Shown one piece after another: positions 41,405 to 49,371 of a DNA stretch of 50,741 bases (its first letter is position 1; each line of letters begins with the position of its first letter). This DNA comes from an uncultured Clostridia bacterium. Its GTDB lineage: Bacteria > Bacillota > Clostridia > TANB77 > CAG-508. The stretch covers positions 6,857 to 57,597 of the forward strand of contig CAPBNZ010000002.1 in the NCBI GenBank assembly GCA_948585895.1. Direction: 5' to 3'. The notes beneath the pieces were generated by a model, which made no database searches, was not told the DNA's origin, and was given only the letters and a program-made list of their open reading frames with translations. Made by a program: the position numbers and the translations under genes.

Positions 41405-42607
41405 ATGGCAAAAGCAAAATTTGAAAGAACAAAACCACACGTTAATATTGGTACAATTGGTCACGTAGACCACGGAAAAACAACAACAACAGCAGCTATT
41501 ACAAAATATTTATCATTATTAGGAAAAGCACAATTTGAAGCATATGATCAAATCGATGGTGCTCCAGAAGAGCAAGCAAGAGGAATCACAATTAACACAG
41601 CACACGTTGAATATGAAACAGACAACAGACACTATGCACACGTTGACTGTCCAGGACATGCTGACTATGTTAAAAACATGATTACAGGTGCAGCACAAAT
41701 GGATGGTGCAGTATTAGTTGTATCAGCAGCAGATGGACCTATGCCACAAACAAGAGAACACATATTACTTGCTAGACAAGTTGGGGTTAAATACATCGTT
41801 GTATATTTAAACAAATGTGATATGGTTGATGACCCAGAATTATTAGAATTAGTTGAAATGGAAGTTAGAGACTTACTTAGTGAATATGATTTCCCAGGAG
41901 ATGATATTCCAATCATAAAAGGATCTTCATTAAAAGTATTAGAAAGCACTTCAACAAATCCTGATGACGAAGTTTATAAACCTATGAAAGAATTAATGGA
42001 AGCAGTTGATAGTTATATTCCAACACCAGAAAGACCAGTTGACCAACCATTCCTAATGCCAGTTGAAGACGTATTCACAATTACAGGACGTGGAACAGTT
42101 GCAACAGGTAGAGTAGAAAGAGGAATTATTAAAGTTTCTGATGAAGTTGAAATCATTGGATTATCAACAGAAAGAAAGAAAACTGTTATTACAGGTGTTG
42201 AAATGTTCAGAAAATTATTAGATCAAGCTGAAGCTGGAGATAATATTGGAGCATTATTAAGAGGAATTGATAGAAAAGAAATCGAAAGAGGTCAAGTTCT
42301 AGCTAAACCAGGAACAATCAATCCACATACAAAATTCACTTCTGAAGTTTATGTATTAACAAAAGAAGAAGGTGGAAGACATACACCATTCTTCAATGGA
42401 TATAGACCACAATTCTATTTCAGAACAACAGATGTTACAGGTGTTATTGAATTAGCAGCTGGAACAGAAATGGTTATGCCAGGAGATAACATATCAATGA
42501 CAATTGAATTAATTACACCTATCGCTATCGAAAAGGGACTAAGATTCGCTATTCGTGAAGGTGGTAGAACAGTAGGTTCAGGTGTTGTTGCTGATATATT
42601 AGAGTAA
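41405..42607 (+). CDS. tuf: Elongation factor Tu
   Basis: [27 protein letters not shown] and DCPGHADY motifs. 400 aa. Confidence 0.97.
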
Positions 42608-42689: not shown

Positions 42690-43847
42690 TTAATCAAATA
42701 CGGAATTTAATGTATTTACAGAATTTTGTTTTGACTCTGGTAATACTGCAAGATATATTTCTGTTGATGATAATTTTTTATGTCGCATAAGTTTCATAAT
42801 AGTATATAGGTCTGTTCCATTGAGTAATAATAGAACGGCAAATGTATGCCTTAAATCGTGAAATACTCTATATGTAAATCCTTTGTTTTCTTTCATAAGT
42901 TTTAATATTTTCTTTTTAAATACTTTTTGTAAATCTTTTTTATCTATTTGATGACCATTAGCAGTAAATACATATTCTGATGTTCTAGGAAGATTTATCA
43001 GTAAATTATAAATGAAATCTGACATTGGAATAATATCAATACTACTTTCAGTTTTAGGTTTTCCATTTTTGGTTTCATATCCGACTTTTTTTCGTGTAGT
43101 TTTATCATATACTGCTGAACGAGTTGTATTATTTTTAACATAAATTTCTCTTTTTTCAAAATTTAAATGGATCCATTTTAGTCCGACAATTTCGCCCTCT
43201 CTCATTCCTGTTCCAAGTGCAAAATCAACAACATCTTTATATTTATTATCTTCAAATTCTTTTCTTAATATTTTTACCTCTTCAGTAGTAAAATATTTAA
43301 AAGGAATTTTTTTCTTTTCAATAAGAGCATCTACATCTATATCTTTATTTTGGGGAATAGTTGTATTAGCACAAGGGTTCTTTTCAACATAACCTTCCTT
43401 TTCACAATATTTAAAAAAAGGATTTAATAATTTATGTACTTTAATAATATTCGATTCAGATTTACCATCATCAGCTAATTTATTATAAAAATTTTGTATC
43501 ATTATGCTTTTAATATTGCAAATATCTACATTTGATATTTCGTAAGGCTCTACATGATTTCTATATGTTCCCTCATACGATTCAAAAGATGTATCTTTTA
43601 ATTCATTTACTTTTACAGTAAATAACCATTCTGGCAATAGAATATTTATGGTATAGCATTTATTTTTATCTGCAAGGATACCATTTTTTAATTTTTCTAT
43701 ATAATCATCTGCTTTTTGTTCCGCTTCTGATTTACTAGATCCATAGAATTGTTTTTTTATTGGGATACCATTTGCTTTATGTCCAATAGTTTTTGTTGTT
43801 CTATAATAATCATAGCCATTAACAGTTGTGTTGGTTTTCTTTGCCAA
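42690..43847 (-). CDS. int: Phage tyrosine integrase
   Basis: C-terminal catalytic signature HDLRHTFAVLLL..LMRHKKLSSTEIYL. A GGAGG RBS 9 nt before TTG 43847 gives (M)AKKTNTTVNGYDYY. The track ORF extends to 43892. Confidence 0.9.
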   Translation of the reverse strand: MAKKTNTTVNGYDYYRTTKTIGHKANGIPIKKQFYGSSKSEAEQKADDYIEKLKNGILADKNKCYTINILLPEWLFTVKVNELKDTSFESYEGTYRNHVEPYEISNVDICNIKSIMIQNFYNKLADDGKSESNIIKVHKLLNPFFKYCEKEGYVEKNPCANTTIPQNKDIDVDALIEKKKIPFKYFTTEEVKILRKEFEDNKYKDVVDFALGTGMREGEIVGLKWIHLNFEKREIYVKNNTTRSAVYDKTTRKKVGYETKNGKPKTESSIDIIPMSDFIYNLLINLPRTSEYVFTANGHQIDKKDLQKVFKKKILKLMKENKGFTYRVFHDLRHTFAVLLLLNGTDLYTIMKLMRHKKLSSTEIYLAVLPESKQNSVNTLNSVFD

Positions 43848-44047
43848 TTTATTCGACCTCCAATGCACATTTTTTTGACCAAACACTTGCAAATTTACGA
43901 CTATTCATATATAATACAAATAGTCGTGTAAGTGTTTTATCTTTTGTACACTTGCAATGGAATCTTTAGTTTTTACAATTTATTGTAAATTACGAGGATA
44001 GTTAGAGCGAAATCATTATGAGAGGTTTGGTTCTAACTATTTTTATT

Positions 44048-44338: not shown

Positions 44339-44995
44339 TTATAAAAATGCCGATTTCATTTCAACTCTAATGACTTTACCTATTATATGTATATCTCCAG
44401 ATTTTTCTTTTGGAAAATATGGGTTTAAAGGTTCTAGCTCATACTCATTGTTATCTAGTATTAGAATTTTTCTAATAAGTATTTTATTATCATTAATCAA
44501 TAAGTAAACCTTATTGTTTTTTATATCAGAACATTTTTCAATTATTGCAGTATCTTCTTTTCCTAAAAGGGGCAACATTGAGTCATCTCTAGCAATAAAA
44601 GCAATATATTCTTTGTTTTCTTCTAACTTAAAATTAGCATATATATATTCTTGTGCTGGATCAGTTATAAAAGAATTATTTTTTTTATCATAATTTATTC
44701 TAATAACAATGGGAATTTTATTATTTTTATTTGAAACATTGTCATCAAAAAAGTCATCTATTAAATAATCTGTATATCCACATACTTGCATTAGTTCTCG
44801 ATAGTTAGTCATTCCTTTAGAATTTGTAGCAATGTTTTCAAGTATTTTAGGAGATGGTGGCTTTTCTTTTTTCATGTTCATATATTCTGATAAGTACCCT
44901 CTACTAACACCAACTTTAGAGGAAAATTCTCTTTGTGTGTCAAAGGTTTCATATATTTCTTTTAGAATCTTCGCAAATTTATTTTTATCAAACAT
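44339..44995 (-). CDS. CI-like phage repressor (XRE HTH + S24 LexA-like peptidase)
   Basis: AGGAGG RBS then ATG 44995 (MFDKNKFAKILKEIY). HTH REFSSKVGVSRGYLSEYMN. S24 signature ARDDSMLP with the downstream Lys region HIIGKVIRV. Confidence 0.85.
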   Translation of the reverse strand: MFDKNKFAKILKEIYETFDTQREFSSKVGVSRGYLSEYMNMKKEKPPSPKILENIATNSKGMTNYRELMQVCGYTDYLIDDFFDDNVSNKNNKIPIVIRINYDKKNNSFITDPAQEYIYANFKLEENKEYIAFIARDDSMLPLLGKEDTAIIEKCSDIKNNKVYLLINDNKILIRKILILDNNEYELEPLNPYFPKEKSGDIHIIGKVIRVEMKSAFL

Positions 44996-45039
44996 AAAAA
45001 AACCTCCTAAACCTATTGTACAGCAATGGTTCAAAAAAG

Positions 45040-45079
45040 TCAACAAAAAAAGTTGAATTTTTTTAACAAAAAGTGTTGA
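45040..45079. promoter_or_regulatory. Two operator-like inverted repeats in the cI/cro divergent region
   Basis: TCAAC-N7-GTTGA (45040-45056) and TTAAC-N7-GTTGA (45063-45079), with centres 23 bp apart. The second overlaps the -35 of the rightward promoter. Confidence 0.45.
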
Positions 45080-45104
45080 CTTTTTTTATTTAATATAATA
45101 AAAT
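45076..45104 (+). promoter_or_regulatory. Candidate rightward (early lytic) promoter
   Basis: TTGACT, 17-nt spacer, TAAAAT. Confidence 0.45.
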
Positions 45105-46514: not shown

Positions 46515-46688
46515 ATGGAAACTTGTAGTATATGTGGAAAAAAGTATAAAGGTTATGGTAATAATGCTAGACCAGTAAATGATGGAAGATGTTGTGATGA
46601 TTGCAATTTTAAAGTAGTAATTCCAAAAAGAATTGAAGTTTCAATGAGTTTAAAGGCACATAAAAAATCAGATATGAAAGGTTGGTAA
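46515..46688 (+). CDS. Small zinc-ribbon phage protein
   Basis: METCSICGKKY..RCCDDCNF has two Cys pairs. GAGAGG RBS. Internal Met of track ORF 46392. Confidence 0.45.
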   Translation: METCSICGKKYKGYGNNARPVNDGRCCDDCNFKVVIPKRIEVSMSLKAHKKSDMKGW

Positions 46689-46690
46689 TT

Positions 46691-47314
46691 ATGACTAGGG
46701 AGGAATGGTTAGAAGAAAGAAAAACTGGAATTGGCGGTTCAGATGCCTCTGCAATATTAGGGTTAAATCCATATAGCGATAACATTAAATTATGGGAAAT
46801 AAAAACTAAAAGGGCAGAGCAAGAAGATATTTCAAATAAGCCTTATGTACAATATGGTGTAGCAATGGAAGATAACTTGAGACAAAGTTTTGCAATAAAA
46901 CACCCCGAATTTGAAGTTATACATGAAGAAAATACAATAATTAGACATCCTAAATATCCATTCTTATTTGCTAGTTTAGATGGTGTTCTAATAAATAAAG
47001 AAACTGGAGAAAAAGGAATTTTAGAAATAAAAACATCAGAGATTTTAAGAAGTATGCAAAAAGAAAAATGGAATGATCGTGTTCCAGATAATTATTTCAT
47101 ACAAGTATTACATTACTTAAATGTTACTGGATTTTCATTTGCATATTTATTTGCAGAACTAACCTATTCAGAAGATTTACAGATGACAAAAACATTTAAA
47201 TTTGACAGAAATAATTTAACTGAAGATATAGATTATTTACAAGAAAAAGAAATTGAATTTTGGAAATATGTCGAAGAGGATAAAAGACCTCCTCTAGTAT
47301 TACCAAATATGTAG
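46691..47314 (+). CDS. YqaJ-like viral recombinase exonuclease (lambda Exo-type)
   Basis: REEWLEERKTGIGGSDASAILGLNPY is the hallmark YqaJ N-terminus. PD-(D/E)xK-like LDG...EIK. Confidence 0.85.
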   Translation: MTREEWLEERKTGIGGSDASAILGLNPYSDNIKLWEIKTKRAEQEDISNKPYVQYGVAMEDNLRQSFAIKHPEFEVIHEENTIIRHPKYPFLFASLDGVLINKETGEKGILEIKTSEILRSMQKEKWNDRVPDNYFIQVLHYLNVTGFSFAYLFAELTYSEDLQMTKTFKFDRNNLTEDIDYLQEKEIEFWKYVEEDKRPPLVLPNM

Positions 47315-47323
47315 GAGGGAAAT

Positions 47324-47650
47324 ATGGAAAAGAAAATTTATTCGTCATGGGCATTTACAGAAAATGAAGAAGAGAAATCAAAAATAAACAATAGTATTTA
47401 TAAAGAGCTGAAAGAAAAATACAGAATATTAAAAGTTAGTGATGTTGATCATACAGAACCTACGAGCAAAGAATTAGAACAAAATGACATAGTCTATTCA
47501 AGAAAGGCTTGTTATGCACATGGAGAATATAAAATTTATAAATGTCCTAATGAAGTAACATTAGATGAATTAGCCTTAATATGTGATGGCGGAAATTTAT
47601 GCTTTGGATATAGAGGGAATAGGAATTTTTTATCTGTATCAGAAGATTAA
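47324..47650 (+). CDS. Hypothetical phage protein
   Basis: 108-aa ORF with a GGAGGG RBS. Confidence 0.45.
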   Translation: MEKKIYSSWAFTENEEEKSKINNSIYKELKEKYRILKVSDVDHTEPTSKELEQNDIVYSRKACYAHGEYKIYKCPNEVTLDELALICDGGNLCFGYRGNRNFLSVSED

Positions 47651-47670
47651 AAAGAAAGGATGATTTTAAA

Positions 47671-47955
47671 ATGAATAAATATGAAAGTGTAATGATAGTT
47701 ACTCCAACTATGAATGATAAACAACAAAAGGAGATAGAAAATAAATACACAAAACTAATTAATGAAAATGGAAAAGTAGAGAGTTTTGAAAATTTAGGAA
47801 AGAAAAAATTAGCTTATGAAATTAGAAAATATAAAGAGGGTTTTTATATGACATTTAATTTTGAGAGTGAAGCATCATTTATTTCAGAGCTAGAAAGACA
47901 ATATAGAATTGATGATGATGTAATTAAATTTATAGTAGTTAGGAGGGAAGATTAG
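47671..47955 (+). CDS. Ribosomal protein bS6 homologue encoded in the prophage
   Basis: MNKYESVMIVTPTMNDKQQKEIENKYTKLINENGKVESFENLGKKKLAYEIRKYKEGFYMTFNFES..DDDVIKFIVVRRED aligns along its full length with bacterial S6 (KYE..P...G....G.K.LAYEI...GFY...DD.I....VV). Confidence 0.85.
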   Translation: MNKYESVMIVTPTMNDKQQKEIENKYTKLINENGKVESFENLGKKKLAYEIRKYKEGFYMTFNFESEASFISELERQYRIDDDVIKFIVVRRED

Positions 47956-47957
47956 AT

Positions 47958-48773
47958 ATGGAATTAAAGGTTGAAGAAATAAAATCGTTAGCACCTATTC
48001 AATTCAATTATGAAGATATTAAGAAATGGGTAACAGAAAAGGCAAAGGAATATAAATCATTAGTATATACAGAAGAAACTATTACTGCTGCTAAAACAGA
48101 TAGGGCAACATTGAATAAAGTAGCAAAAGCTATAAATGATGAAAAAATTAGAATTAAAAAAGAAGTATTAAAACCATTTGAAGATTTTGAAAATAAGTGC
48201 AAAGAATTACAAGGAATAATTACAGATGCATCAAGTTCGATAGATGCACAAGTAAAATCGTTTGAAGAAAAAGAACAAAACGAAAAGAGAGAGCAAATAA
48301 AAACGATATTTGATGCCTACATAGGAGATTATAAAGATTTAATTATATTTGACTCAATATTTAATCCAAGATGGTTAAATAAAACATACACTATAAAGAA
48401 AATAGAAGAGGAAATAAATCATTTAGTAATTAAAACATCAGATGATATGAAAGTTTTAAAAGGTCAAATAAATGATGAAGTGATTCTAAAACAAGTACAA
48501 GCATTTTATTTTTCACATATAGCAGACTCTGATTGCTTAAGTGGTTCATTAAAATATGGAATGAATGTTATTGAGAGCAATAGAAAACTAGAAGAATTAA
48601 AGCAACAACAAGAGGCAAAAAAAGAAATACAAGCTCCTAGTATAGCACAAGAGACAACTACACAAGAACAATTACAAGTTATTGATTTTAGAGTATGGGT
48701 TACCCAAGAACAAAAGATGAAAATTAGAGATTTTCTAATTCAAAATAATATTAAATATGGAAAGGTGGATTAA
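47958..48773 (+). CDS. DUF1351-like phage protein
   Basis: 271 aa. The N-terminal pattern and its position in a recombination module resemble DUF1351 of Firmicutes siphophages (by eye). Confidence 0.55.
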   Translation: MELKVEEIKSLAPIQFNYEDIKKWVTEKAKEYKSLVYTEETITAAKTDRATLNKVAKAINDEKIRIKKEVLKPFEDFENKCKELQGIITDASSSIDAQVKSFEEKEQNEKREQIKTIFDAYIGDYKDLIIFDSIFNPRWLNKTYTIKKIEEEINHLVIKTSDDMKVLKGQINDEVILKQVQAFYFSHIADSDCLSGSLKYGMNVIESNRKLEELKQQQEAKKEIQAPSIAQETTTQEQLQVIDFRVWVTQEQKMKIRDFLIQNNIKYGKVD

Positions 48774-48776
48774 TTT

Positions 48777-49103
48777 ATGAATTTAGCGGAATTATTATTT
48801 GGAAAACCAAAAATGAAAGGAAAAATTAGTGTTGAAGTAGATGATGAAATAGAAAAAGCAGAAACACAAATAGAAGGAAGTCTTCCATCTGTTTTAACAA
48901 TGATAAGTTTAATTTGTTCCAACTTACAGGAACATGGAATCCCTAAAGAGCTTATTAAGGGAGCAGTAGCTATTGGGCTTAATGAAGATAAAGGAAACAA
49001 AGAAAAAAATAAGAAAGTTATTGAAAAAACAATTGTTGTAGATAGTGAAGAAAAAGCAAAAGAAGTAAAAGAATTATTAAAGAAACTAGGGGTGGAGGAT
49101 TAA
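48777..49103 (+). CDS. Hypothetical phage protein
   Basis: 108-aa ORF, tightly packed with its neighbours. Confidence 0.45.
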   Translation: MNLAELLFGKPKMKGKISVEVDDEIEKAETQIEGSLPSVLTMISLICSNLQEHGIPKELIKGAVAIGLNEDKGNKEKNKKVIEKTIVVDSEEKAKEVKELLKKLGVED

Positions 49104-49107
49104 TAAT

Positions 49108-49371
49108 ATGGAAATTTTAAAAATATCAAGTAAATCAAATGTGAATTCAGTTGCTGGAGCATTAACTGCTCAAATAAAACAATCTGGAAAATCAGAAATG
49201 CAAGTAGTAGGAGCTGGAGCATTAAATCAAGCTGTAAAGGCAATAGCAATAGCAAGAGGTTTTGTTGCACCAATGGGAATAAATTTAGTATGTATTCCAG
49301 CATTTACAGAAGTAGAAATTGACAACGAGAATAAAAGTGCAATTAAGTTAATTGTAAGGGAGGAAAAGTAA
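49108..49371 (+). CDS. spoVS: Stage V sporulation protein S (SpoVS) homologue encoded in the prophage
   Basis: MEILKISSKSNVNSVAGAL..GAGALNQAVKAIAIARGFVAPMGINLVCIPAFTEVEID..SAIKLIV is near-colinear with Bacillus SpoVS (86 aa). Confidence 0.9.
   Translation: MEILKISSKSNVNSVAGALTAQIKQSGKSEMQVVGAGALNQAVKAIAIARGFVAPMGINLVCIPAFTEVEIDNENKSAIKLIVREEK

What the first reader, a model, noticed from the sequence alone, without database searches (positions are those of the whole stretch)
47671..47955. Prophage-encoded ribosomal protein S6 homologue inside the recombination module
The 94-aa ORF aligns end to end with bacterial bS6 (KYE..P, LAYEI, GFY, DD.I..VV). It lies between phage genes: YqaJ exonuclease upstream, DUF1351-like and RecT downstream. 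Virus-encoded ribosomal proteins have been reported, mostly bS21, and remain functionally obscure. In bacterial genomes rpsF is classically linked to ssb (rpsF-ssb-rpsR). This phage places S6 where an SSB gene often sits in Exo/RecT modules. That suggests capture via an rpsF-ssb locus, or a moonlighting or ribosome-modifying role.
Basis: partly seen in the sequence, partly recalled or inferred. Interest (0 to 1): 0.6.

Follow-up and report, generated by a model that had tools for sequence, protein, structure and literature searches.

The report
Prophage copy of ribosomal protein S6
A temperate phage of an uncultured gut Clostridia bacterium carries a well-preserved copy of its host's ribosomal protein S6 gene inside its DNA-recombination operon; phage S6 genes were already catalogued, but this shows a large phage lineage has kept one for a long time.

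Summary
ORF 47671-47955 (+) is a full-length bS6: Pfam Ribosomal_S6 101 bits, TIGR00166 91 bits, and an AlphaFold model that superposes on ribosome-bound bS6 (TM 0.90-0.96).

It lies in a prophage integrated beside tuf, in the rightward early operon: YqaJ, a 108-aa gene, S6, DUF1351, a second 108-aa gene, SpoVS, RecT. The host has its own rpsF-ssb-rpsR on another contig.

The gene is not a one-off. It belongs to a strongly supported clade of about 93 protein clusters. All seven alleles I examined sit in the same YqaJ-S6-DUF1351-RecT slot. The clade branches with rpsF of the host's own genus, so it was captured from that lineage. dN/dS is 0.13-0.18.

The bS18-contact loop (KKLAYE) and K86 are conserved. 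The host's S6:S18 autoregulatory leader is absent. Clade-specific substitutions cluster on helix alpha-1, away from the S18 interface.

Other S6 copies on mobile elements in the same bacterial family lie beside ERF and SSB genes. This fits the idea that rpsF and ssb were captured together.

My best reading is a functional S6 that pairs with host bS18 and enters 30S subunits. That step is inferred, not shown. Virus-encoded bS6 was already listed by Mizuno 2019, so this is a new member of a known kind.

The parts
41405..42607 (+). Host tuf (EF-Tu). This is the chromosomal flank of the prophage.
   Evidence: A 400-aa ORF whose sequence is plainly EF-Tu. The same tuf-integrase junction occurs in relative L008, where the gene hits the GTP_EFTU Pfam families.
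42690..43892 (-). Prophage tyrosine integrase.
   Evidence: Pfam Phage_integrase 79.6 bits plus Phage_int_SAM_3.
44339..45046 (-). CI-like repressor (HTH plus S24 peptidase).
   Evidence: Pfam Peptidase_S24 49.2 bits and HTH_3. Divergent promoter-like sites lie at 45015-45043 (-) and 45076-45104 (+).
46682..47314 (+). YqaJ-type exonuclease of the recombination module.
   Evidence: Pfam YqaJ 116.6 bits. It is 64-96% identical in all related prophages.
47324..47650 (+). 108-aa accessory gene (phrog_10455, function unknown). It is an insertion specific to this prophage.
   Evidence: PHROG hit at 99.6 bits. It is absent from relatives, where S6 follows YqaJ after 15-30 nt.
47655..47660 (+). Shine-Dalgarno sequence AAAGGA of the S6 gene. 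No S6:S18-binding leader is present.
   Evidence: Read directly from the sequence. Compared with the conserved leader of host rpsF genes.
47671..47955 (+). Prophage-encoded bS6 paralogue (94 aa), the subject of the finding.
   Evidence: Pfam 101.2 bits and TIGR00166 91.2 bits. AlphaFold2 and Foldseek match to bS6. Member of a 99-100% supported prophage clade. dN/dS 0.13-0.18.
47958..48773 (+). DUF1351 protein, a conserved partner gene in the module.
   Evidence: Pfam DUF1351 132.2 bits and phrog_674.
48777..49103 (+). Conserved gene of about 105 aa with unknown function, lying between DUF1351 and RecT.
   Evidence: No Pfam or PHROG hit. A gene of 85-108 aa occupies this place in most relatives.
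49108..49371 (+). Phage-borne SpoVS homologue, an accessory gene.
   Evidence: Pfam SpoVS 115.2 bits and phrog_35646. It is present in relative L074 and absent from most others.
49372..50334 (+). RecT single-strand annealing protein.
   Evidence: Pfam RecT 129.8 bits.

Best explanation
The ORF is a host-derived copy of rpsF (ribosomal protein bS6). An ancestor of this temperate phage lineage captured it from the host's own genus of low-GC gut Clostridia. The lineage has kept it under purifying selection in a fixed slot of the early YqaJ/DUF1351/RecT recombination operon.

Shown here:
- It has the bS6 sequence and fold.
- It is part of the prophage, and the host has its own rpsF-ssb-rpsR.
- It belongs to a large monophyletic prophage clade with conserved synteny.
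- It lacks the host rpsF leader, which looks like the known S6:S18 repressor-binding site. Its expression therefore follows the phage early promoter and not ribosomal-protein feedback.
- The residues that contact bS18 in E. coli (the RQLAYP loop and R85, equivalent to K45-E50 and K86 here) are conserved.
- The substitutions fixed in the phage clade cluster on helix alpha-1 (K17, Q18, Q19, E21, I22, N24, Y26, K28) plus Q77 and D81, away from that interface.

Inferred:
- After induction the phage S6 pairs with host bS18.
- It is then built into new 30S platforms in place of host bS6.
- This gives ribosomes an altered surface next to bS18, bS21 and the anti-Shine-Dalgarno region, which could bias translation initiation in the phage's favour.

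I recall that the two helices of bS6 face the solvent in the 30S subunit. I could not check this with these tools.

Its position inside a single-strand-annealing module is most simply a legacy of how phages sample the host rpsF-ssb-rpsR operon when they acquire ssb.
For: Identity:
- Pfam 101.2 bits and TIGR00166 91.2 bits. The host's own rpsF scores 103.6 bits on the same profile.
- AlphaFold2 pLDDT 93.9. The top Foldseek hits are all ribosome-bound bS6, TM 0.90-0.96.

Prophage location and a separate host copy:
- Integrase, repressor, YqaJ and RecT surround the gene.
- The host rpsF-ssb-rpsR is on contig C1.

Lineage:
- The prophage S6 clade holds 93 of 163 rows, with SH-aLRT 100 and 99 in two trees.
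- It groups with host-genus rpsF at 97 and 93.
- A scan of 400 genomes of the class gave the best cellular matches in the same genus (57-65% identity), then the same family (47-57%), then other orders (35-50%).

Synteny:
- All seven alleles examined (window, P0010, P0019, P0030, P0037, P0039, P0048; 69-100% identity; about 15 loci) lie between YqaJ and DUF1351 in integrase/S24-repressor prophages.
- These prophages use different attachment sites.
- P0048 alone is indexed in more than 1000 assembly blocks.

Selection:
- dN/dS is 0.13-0.18 among phage alleles, against 0.15-0.37 among host-genus rpsF genes.
- All 15 positions that are universal in cellular S6 of this class are kept.

bS18 interface:
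- E. coli S6 aligns to the window protein without gaps.
- Babina et al. 2015 (PMC4647458) define the S6:S18 interface as S6 RQLAYP plus R85. They used E22 on helix alpha-1 as a non-interface control.
- The equivalent residues K45-E50 and K86 are 84-100% conserved in the clade, while the clade-specific changes surround E23.

Leader:
- Host rpsF genes across the family share CCTTAC-hairpin-GGTTATA..CC[A/G]..AAGGAGGTG directly before the ATG. The phage gene has none of this.

Precedent:
- bS6, bS18 and bS21 form the pocket at the anti-SD region (PMC7797042).
Against: - No expression, ribosome-association or bS18-binding data exist.
- bS6 is not among the loosely bound, exchangeable ribosomal proteins that viruses tend to encode (PMC6375957). 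Only newly assembled 30S subunits could receive it.
- Several positions invariant in host S6 vary within the phage clade: E37, L61, E65, R79 and D82. This may mean partly relaxed or shifted constraints.
- The gene is tied to recombination modules, not to translation-related phage genes. A different S6 clade occupies the same slot in L063. This could point to a role linked to recombination.
- Related DUF1351/RecT modules exist without S6: L064, G014, G065 and G067. The gene is therefore accessory, not essential.
Confidence: 0.5

Rival explanations
1. The phage S6 captures bS18 to act as a regulator and is not a ribosome part. By taking host bS18, the RNA-binding half of the S6:S18 translational repressor, it would change translation of the host rpsF-ssb-rpsR operon. 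That would change the supply of host SSB, which the phage's RecT and replication need, since this phage has no ssb of its own nearby.
For: - The bS18 interface is conserved, even in the very divergent second mobile-element clade, which has lost other universal residues such as K44.
- The host operon places ssb between rpsF and rpsR, behind a conserved leader.
- The S6:S18 complex is a known repressor of this operon (PMC3854524, PMC4647458).
- No SSB gene lies within about 6 kb in window-type modules.
- S6 is tied to RecT or ERF modules in several element families.
Against: - In E. coli, overexpressing S6 alone had essentially no effect on the rpsF-leader reporter. Both proteins were required (PMC4647458).
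- The direction of any effect is unclear. More complex would repress ssb, which would not obviously help the phage.
- Elements of the second clade carry their own SSB and still keep S6.
Confidence: 0.15
2. The phage S6 has a new function as an accessory of the recombination module. The S6 fold would have been co-opted to bind ssDNA, RNA or a module protein (RecT, DUF1351, YqaJ or host SSB), and it would no longer act on the ribosome.
For: - The slot between exonuclease and DUF1351/RecT is fixed in all seven alleles examined.
- An S6 of a different clade occupies the same slot in L063.
- Other mobile-element S6 genes sit beside ERF and SSB.
- The stem branch of the clade is long (0.23-0.35), with a cluster of fixed, more basic substitutions on helix alpha-1: A17K, G28K, E24N.
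- A co-resident phage has its SSB gene in the equivalent position.
Against: - The profile score is as high as the host protein's.
- All universal S6 residues and the bS18 interface are kept. That would be unexpected if ribosomal partners no longer mattered.
- No extraribosomal DNA-related role of bS6 is listed in a 2024 review beyond S6:S18 autoregulation (PMC10931766).
- It has no OB fold and no SSB-like acidic tip.
Confidence: 0.2
3. The gene is a neutral passenger: a piece of host DNA picked up by imprecise recombination, with no function for the phage.
For: - Phages sample host DNA at random (discussion in PMC6375957).
- Some related modules lack S6.
Against: - The clade holds about 93 clusters at 90% identity, diverged down to about 65-70% identity, with intact frames.
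- dN/dS is 0.13-0.18 and the position is conserved.
- The same allele has identical DNA in otherwise divergent modules, L011 and L012, which indicates exchange of a retained cassette.
Confidence: 0.05
4. The gene is an assembly or binning artefact: really the host's rpsF, or DNA from another organism joined to this contig.
For: The genome is a metagenome-assembled bin of 147 contigs with 5.4% estimated contamination.
Against: - The same gene order is assembled independently in many samples and on contigs up to 693 kb, flanked by host genes.
- The host's own rpsF is separate and only 60% identical.
Confidence: 0.02

Closest known systems
Virus-encoded ribosomal proteins (Mizuno et al. 2019, Nat Commun 10:752, PMC6375957), which list bS6 in 5 uncultivated viral contigs
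   Same: It is a single ribosomal-protein gene of cellular origin carried by a bacterial virus and kept under purifying selection. bS6 was reported as enriched in phages of animal-associated bacteria. The present host is a gut bacterium.
   Different: That survey gave no gene context, phylogeny or dN/dS for bS6; its table lists dN/dS as N/A. Here the gene is shown to be a conserved part of a temperate-phage recombination operon, derived from the host genus, and to have lost its autoregulatory leader. Incorporation into ribosomes was shown there only for bS21 and bL12, which are exchangeable proteins. bS6 is an assembly protein that binds as a heterodimer with bS18.
Cellular rpsF (bS6) in the rpsF-ssb-rpsR operon of Firmicutes, with its S6:S18-binding leader (PMC3854524, PMC4647458)
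   Same: It has the same fold, the same length, the same signature G-K-K-K-L-A-Y-E-I and the same bS18-contact residues. It is 57-65% identical to rpsF of the host genus.
   Different: It is not in the operon and has no leader, no adjacent ssb and no rpsR. It carries about 10 clade-specific fixed substitutions, mostly on helix alpha-1. It is transcribed with phage early genes.
S6-SSB modules of other mobile elements in the same bacterial family (G000 contig C7, G028 contigs C59 and C60, loci L069-L073, IMG/VR locus L004)
   Same: These are mobile-element S6 paralogues embedded in single-strand-annealing (ERF) and SSB modules, in hosts of the same family.
   Different: They form a separate, faster-evolving clade. 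S6 lies 0-3 genes upstream of a host-like SSB, as in rpsF-ssb. The annealase is ERF, not RecT. Some universal S6 residues (K44, G34, R76) are lost.
Phage SSB genes placed next to the exonuclease and annealase (for example the Rad52-like / PD-(D/E)XK / SSB module of the co-resident phage on contig C47)
   Same: The position in the module corresponds: directly downstream of the exonuclease.
   Different: There is no homology and no OB fold. S6 is an alpha/beta split beta-alpha-beta RNA-binding protein.

Membership tests
bS6 (Pfam PF01250 Ribosomal_S6 / NCBIfam TIGR00166) | Full-length profile match above the curated cut-offs | tested here: met
   PF01250: 101.2 bits against a cut-off of 27, profile positions 1-90 of 90. 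TIGR00166: 91.2 bits against a cut-off of 42.9.
bS6 (Pfam PF01250 Ribosomal_S6 / NCBIfam TIGR00166) | Four-stranded sheet with two helices (beta-alpha-beta-beta-alpha-beta) that superposes on solved bS6 | tested here: met
   The AlphaFold2 model has pLDDT 93.9 with elements E2-10, H16-33, E34-51, E54-66, H68-80 and E84-92. Foldseek TM is 0.90-0.96 to bS6 chains in ribosome structures.
bS6 (Pfam PF01250 Ribosomal_S6 / NCBIfam TIGR00166) | Conserved bS18-contact residues (E. coli RQLAYP loop and R85, from Babina 2015) | tested here: met
   The gapless alignment to E. coli S6 maps these residues to K45-K46-L47-A48-Y49-E50 and K86. They are 84-100% conserved in the prophage clade. The interface definition comes from PMC4647458.
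bS6 (Pfam PF01250 Ribosomal_S6 / NCBIfam TIGR00166) | Encoded in the rpsF-ssb-rpsR (or rpsF-priB-rpsR) operon behind the S6:S18-binding leader | tested here: not met
   The gene lies between phage genes. It has no leader motif, no ssb and no rpsR. The host's canonical locus is elsewhere.
bS6 (Pfam PF01250 Ribosomal_S6 / NCBIfam TIGR00166) | Physical component of the 30S platform, bound with bS18 to the 16S central domain | not testable with these tools
   This needs ribosome proteomics or binding assays. No multimer prediction or read mapping was available.
Virus-encoded ribosomal proteins (Mizuno 2019) | Gene lies inside a bona fide viral genome, not in host DNA at a contig edge | tested here: met
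   It is flanked on both sides by phage genes (integrase, S24 repressor, YqaJ, DUF1351, RecT; RusA and replication genes in relatives). The same order recurs at different attachment sites. Structural genes lie outside the window.
Virus-encoded ribosomal proteins (Mizuno 2019) | Purifying selection after transfer | tested here: met
   Nei-Gojobori dN/dS is 0.13-0.18 among four phage alleles. Host-genus rpsF gives 0.15-0.37.
Virus-encoded ribosomal proteins (Mizuno 2019) | Incorporation into host ribosomes | not tested
   In the cited paper this was shown only for bS21 and bL12.
SSB (PF00436), the protein whose usual slot S6 occupies | OB fold / SSB profile match and an acidic C-terminal tip | tested here: not met
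   The only Pfam hit is Ribosomal_S6. The fold is alpha/beta. The C-terminus is RRED and has no DDLPF-type tip.

The most novel reading that the evidence does not exclude
S6 copies on mobile elements in this bacterial family are not ribosome parts. They are bS18-directed effectors that belong functionally to single-strand-annealing modules (RecT or ERF, with or without SSB). By capturing host bS18 they would rewire the S6:S18-controlled rpsF-ssb-rpsR operon, and with it the SSB supply. Alternatively they act directly with the annealase. Either would explain why S6 genes of two separate clades occupy the same YqaJ-DUF1351 slot, and why only the bS18 interface is conserved in the most divergent copies.
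Probability: 0.15. Interest if true: 0.8.

Novelty: new member of a known kind. Interest (0 to 1): 0.52.

Why it matters
Virus-encoded ribosomal proteins are known mainly as catalogue entries. Only bS21 and bL12 have any functional data, and bS6 had just five unannotated metagenomic sightings.

This locus gives the bS6 case a concrete, abundant and evolutionarily well-defined system:
- It is a widespread family of gut-Clostridia prophages.
- The S6 gene has a known donor, the host genus.
- Its operon position is fixed.
- Its bS18 interface is intact.
- It has lost its feedback leader.
- One surface, helix alpha-1, is remodelled.

These features turn the question of what a phage does with an assembly-type ribosomal protein into direct experiments: bS18 binding, rpsF complementation, ribosome proteomics and recombineering with or without S6.

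The recurrent link between mobile-element S6 and the RecT/ERF/SSB genes also documents how the conserved rpsF-ssb-rpsR operon feeds genes into phage recombination modules.

Tried and rejected
- **Rfam.** Scans with permissive E-values around all three S6 copies and the prophage found no rpsF-leader or other family. The host leader was then found by eye and alignment. It looks like the published S6S18CBM, but I did not model it.
- **PHROGs.** No family matches the S6.
- **INPHARED phage records.** tblastn gave 26 hits, all below 45% identity. Most are unannotated faecal fragments labelled 'Bacteriophage sp.', or 'phage' records whose S6 is annotated or behaves like host rpsF. None is a close relative.
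- **IMG/VR.** A scan with the single protein returned only one distant locus, L004.
- **Genome-collection scan with DUF1351.** It returned only two loci.
- **Independent capture of the two mobile-element clades.** The ML trees favour it, but the AU test does not reject a single origin (p = 0.24). I therefore do not claim it as established.
- **Link to the lineage's CGG +1 frameshift habit.** I considered this, prompted by earlier notes of this scan. bS6 sits on the platform, far from the decoding centre, and nothing in the data connects the two, so I dropped it.
- **This being the host's only rpsF.** Rejected.
Full report
**1. The observation**

The ORF at 47671-47955 (+) exists as described. 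It encodes 94 residues and is preceded by AAAGGA at 47655-47660. It begins 20 nt after the stop codon of the upstream gene.

It matches Pfam Ribosomal_S6 over the whole profile (101.2 bits, cut-off 27). It matches the NCBIfam equivalog model TIGR00166 (91.2 bits, cut-off 42.9). No PHROG family matches it. Every PDB sequence hit is bS6.

An AlphaFold2 model built on 43 relatives has mean pLDDT 93.9 and the beta-alpha-beta-beta-alpha-beta topology. Its best Foldseek matches are bS6 chains taken from solved ribosomes, with TM 0.90-0.96 and rmsd 1.0-1.6 A. This is far beyond what chance would give.

**2. The surroundings**

The window corresponds to contig C2, positions 6857-57597, of a 1.95-Mb bin of 147 contigs with about 29% GC. 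The gene order is as follows.

- tuf lies at 41405-42607.
- A tyrosine integrase lies at 42690-43892 (-).
- An S24/HTH repressor lies at 44339-45046 (-).
- Divergent promoter-like sites lie at 45015-45104.
- A rightward operon of small genes follows, then YqaJ (46682-47314).
- Next come a phrog_10455 gene (47324-47650), S6, and DUF1351 (47958-48773).
- A 108-aa gene (48777-49103), SpoVS (49108-49371) and RecT (49372-50334) follow.
- A replication gene then runs to the end of the contig.

No convincing plus-strand terminator lies between the early promoter and recT. S6 is therefore an early-operon gene of a prophage.

**3. The host has its own S6**

A whole-genome search finds three S6 genes.

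- C1:18590-18868 heads a canonical rpsF-ssb-rpsR operon.
- C2 holds the window copy.
- C7:37083-37382 lies in another mobile element, with the order ERF, a 555-aa protein, S6, a 94-aa protein, SSB, and further on an ArdC-N protein and a primase-like protein.

The window protein is 60% identical to the host S6 and 42% identical to the C7 copy.

**4. It is one member of a large prophage lineage**

A search of 5.8 billion proteins returned more than 3,300 S6 hits. The best 120 are 65-98% identical to the window protein.

I fetched the encoding contigs for six of them: P0010, P0019, P0030, P0037, P0039 and P0048. They span 69-84% identity and all subclades, including the basal one. In every case the gene sits in the same arrangement:

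- integrase
- S24 repressor
- small genes
- YqaJ
- S6
- zero or one variable gene
- DUF1351
- a gene of about 100 aa
- sometimes SpoVS or other small genes
- RecT
- replication genes
- RusA

These prophages are integrated next to different host genes (tuf, cdaA, argS) and occur on contigs up to 693 kb. P0048 alone is indexed in more than 1000 assembly blocks. No SSB gene was called within about 6 kb of S6 in any of these loci.

The modules are mosaic. L012 has a YqaJ 95% and a RecT 96% identical to the window's, but an S6 only 69% identical. L011 and L012 share an identical S6 DNA sequence although the rest of their modules differ. The S6 gene therefore moves between prophages as a cassette.

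**5. Origin**

Among 81 species-representative genomes of the host's family, 77 have S6. All examined copies lie in rpsF-ssb-rpsR. Only 5 genomes have extra copies.

Across 400 genomes of the class, the best cellular matches to the window protein are:

| Group | Identity to window S6 |
|---|---|
| Same genus | 57-65% |
| Same family | 47-57% |
| Other orders and families | 35-50% |

All of these matches are in rpsF-ssb loci.

In two maximum-likelihood trees the prophage S6 proteins form one clade. SH-aLRT support is 100 and 99, and the stem length is 0.35 and 0.23. This clade groups with rpsF of the host genus at 97 and 93. The gene was therefore captured from this host lineage and has since diversified inside the phages.

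**6. Other S6 genes on mobile elements**

A second, long-branched clade (support 93 and 96) holds the following copies:

- the C7 copy
- copies in G028, G058, G025 and G044
- an IMG/VR viral contig (L004)
- the relatives found with the C7 protein

Their contexts are again ssDNA modules:

- Gp3-like, ERF, a 555-aa protein, S6, one to three genes, SSB and a DnaG-like primase, on contigs of about 28-33 kb.
- S6 directly followed by SSB in G028:C59.
- S6, an 85-aa gene, ERF, and further on a 108-aa protein ending in DDLPF, in L004.
- Settings that resemble conjugative elements: DUF4314-S6-DUF3846 in L071, and a sortase / surface-protein / M23-peptidase neighbourhood in G025:C27.

The SSBs next to these S6 genes resemble the host's (56-74% identity to the host SSB). 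The SSB of the unrelated phage on contig C47 is only 40% identical. This is what co-capture of rpsF and ssb would leave behind.

One copy, G025a, pairs with the rpsF of its own host (support 88 and 83), which suggests a further capture.

An AU test does not reject a single origin for the two large mobile-element clades (p = 0.24). Multiple captures are therefore favoured but not proven.

In locus L063, which I found through its DUF1351 protein, the YqaJ-DUF1351 slot holds an S6 of the second clade, only 36% identical to the window's. Other DUF1351/RecT modules (L064, G014, G065, G067) have no S6. S6 is thus an accessory gene, but one that recurs in this slot.

**7. Constraints on the protein**

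Pairwise Nei-Gojobori dN/dS among four phage alleles is 0.13-0.18, at dS 0.4-1.1. Host-genus rpsF genes give 0.15-0.37.

All 15 positions that are near-universal in cellular S6 of this class are kept: Y4, E5, G34, G43, K44, L47, A48, Y49, G57, Y59, F64, E73, L74, R76 and I80.

Ten positions are fixed in the phage clade but rare in hosts. Eight of them lie on helix alpha-1: K17, Q18, Q19, E21, I22, N24, Y26 and K28. The other two are Q77 and D81. D81 also occurs in one bona fide host rpsF (G025), so it is compatible with ribosomal function.

E. coli S6 aligns to the window protein without gaps. Babina et al. (PMC4647458) mapped the S6:S18 interface to the S6 RQLAYP loop and R85. They used E22 on helix alpha-1 as a non-interface control. 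These map to window residues K45-E50, K86 and E23. So the bS18 interface is conserved, even in the divergent second clade, which keeps [IL]KKLAYEI and K86. The phage-specific changes sit on a surface that is not part of that interface.

Some positions invariant in hosts vary within the phage clade: E37, L61, E65, R79 and D82.

**8. Regulation**

All host rpsF genes of the family, and some beyond it, carry a conserved leader directly before the start codon: CCTTAC-hairpin-GGTTATA..CC[A/G]..AAGGAGGTG. It resembles the published S6:S18 complex-binding motif, a hairpin with an unpaired CCR next to a sequestered Shine-Dalgarno sequence (PMC3854524). Rfam did not detect it.

The phage gene has no such leader. 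The capture took the coding sequence only. Expression now follows the phage early promoter.

**9. Mechanism**

The evidence supports a functional bS6 that still needs to bind bS18.

The simplest consequence is incorporation into newly assembled 30S platforms in place of host bS6, with an altered helical surface. bS6, bS18 and bS21 line the region where the 16S 3' end and anti-SD sequence sit (PMC7797042). bS21 is the ribosomal protein most often carried by phages (PMC6375957). An effect on translation initiation is therefore plausible. This step is inference.

I could not verify the orientation of helix alpha-1 in the 30S subunit. My recollection is that the helices of bS6 face the solvent.

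The rivals are:

- bS18 titration that changes the S6:S18 feedback on rpsF-ssb-rpsR. This is weakened by the E. coli result that S6 alone does not affect the leader reporter.
- A new role inside the recombination module. The fixed slot and the second-clade replacement in L063 suggest it. The retained ribosomal features argue against it.
- A neutral passenger. The size of the clade and the dN/dS values disfavour it.

**10. Comparison with what is known, and novelty**

Mizuno et al. 2019 listed bS6 among 13 ribosomal proteins found in uncultivated viral contigs. There were five contigs, from animal-associated samples, and no dN/dS was given. I found no paper describing S6 in phage recombination modules.

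Earlier notes of this scan report phage or mobile-element bS6 genes in two other genomes. I treat those as leads only.

The finding is therefore a new and much better defined member of a known kind. What this analysis adds is:

- the conserved synteny
- the identification of the donor lineage
- the loss of the leader
- the split between a conserved interface and a remodelled helix alpha-1
- the recurrent link to RecT, ERF and SSB genes

**11. Limits**

- The genome is a metagenome bin with 5.4% estimated contamination. Assigning contig C7 to the same cell is uncertain.
- The trees rest on only 94 alignment columns.
- The dN/dS values use only four alleles.

Noticed in passing
window 49108-49371: A SpoVS homologue (Pfam 115 bits) is wedged directly before recT. 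The same insertion occurs in the distant relative L074, from a bioreactor metagenome, but not in most other relatives. It is a second recurrent host-derived accessory gene in this module.
   Followed up: partly
G000 contig C7:32883-41058 (locus L003 covers 35589-38873): This is a second mobile element in the same bin. Its gene order is Gp3-like, ERF, a 555-aa coiled-coil protein, S6 (99 aa), a 94-aa protein, a host-like SSB (67% identical to host SSB), an ArdC-N/metallopeptidase protein, a primase-like protein and a methyltransferase. Relatives are about 28-33 kb contigs with the same order.
   Followed up: partly
L014 (G025:C23:1-6000) and L019 (G044:C23): Here S6-like N-terminal domains are fused to long C-terminal extensions that end in acidic tails (EEESEEEI, EDTQDLEE). 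They sit in runs of small proteins that nearly all end in acidic tails as well (EEEEEL, EEEDEL, EEEENEQ). This may be tail mimicry of SSB or of glutamylated S6. It remains unexplained.
   Followed up: no
L011:4001-4285 and L012:4001-4285: The S6 DNA is identical in two prophages whose YqaJ, DUF1351 and RecT differ strongly (64/65/69% versus 95/85/96% identity to the window's proteins). This indicates recent exchange of the S6 cassette between prophages.
   Followed up: partly
G000 C1:18471-18589, and the equivalent upstream regions in L021, L028, L030, L034, L040, L052 and L058: A conserved rpsF leader (CCTTAC-hairpin-GGTTATA..CC[A/G]..AAGGAGGTG-ATG) is present in all host rpsF genes examined. 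Rfam did not report it even at E <= 1. It is probably a divergent AT-rich form of the S6:S18-binding motif.
   Followed up: partly
L063:4689-4961: In a MAG labelled 'uncultured Clostridium sp.', the YqaJ-DUF1351 slot holds an S6 of the other mobile-element clade (36% identical to the window's), although YqaJ is 91% and DUF1351 is 76% identical to the window's.
   Followed up: yes
G000 contig C47:4802-7080: A third phage in the bin has a Rad52-like annealase, a PD-(D/E)XK nuclease and an SSB in a row. Its SSB ends in DDFLE where the host SSB ends in DDLPF.
   Followed up: partly
INPHARED records OR851074, OR845280, OR850463, OR847167 and others: Several short records named as Salmonella, Escherichia, Staphylococcus or Listeria phages contain an S6 gene at the identity expected for the host's own rpsF. 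They are unannotated. They look like host DNA fragments (contamination or transduced DNA) and not like phage-encoded S6.
   Followed up: no
window 50360-50741: The replication-organiser gene at the contig end is split by a frame break. Earlier notes of this scan attribute this to a lineage-wide CGG +1 shift. I did not re-examine it, and I found no link to S6.
   Followed up: no
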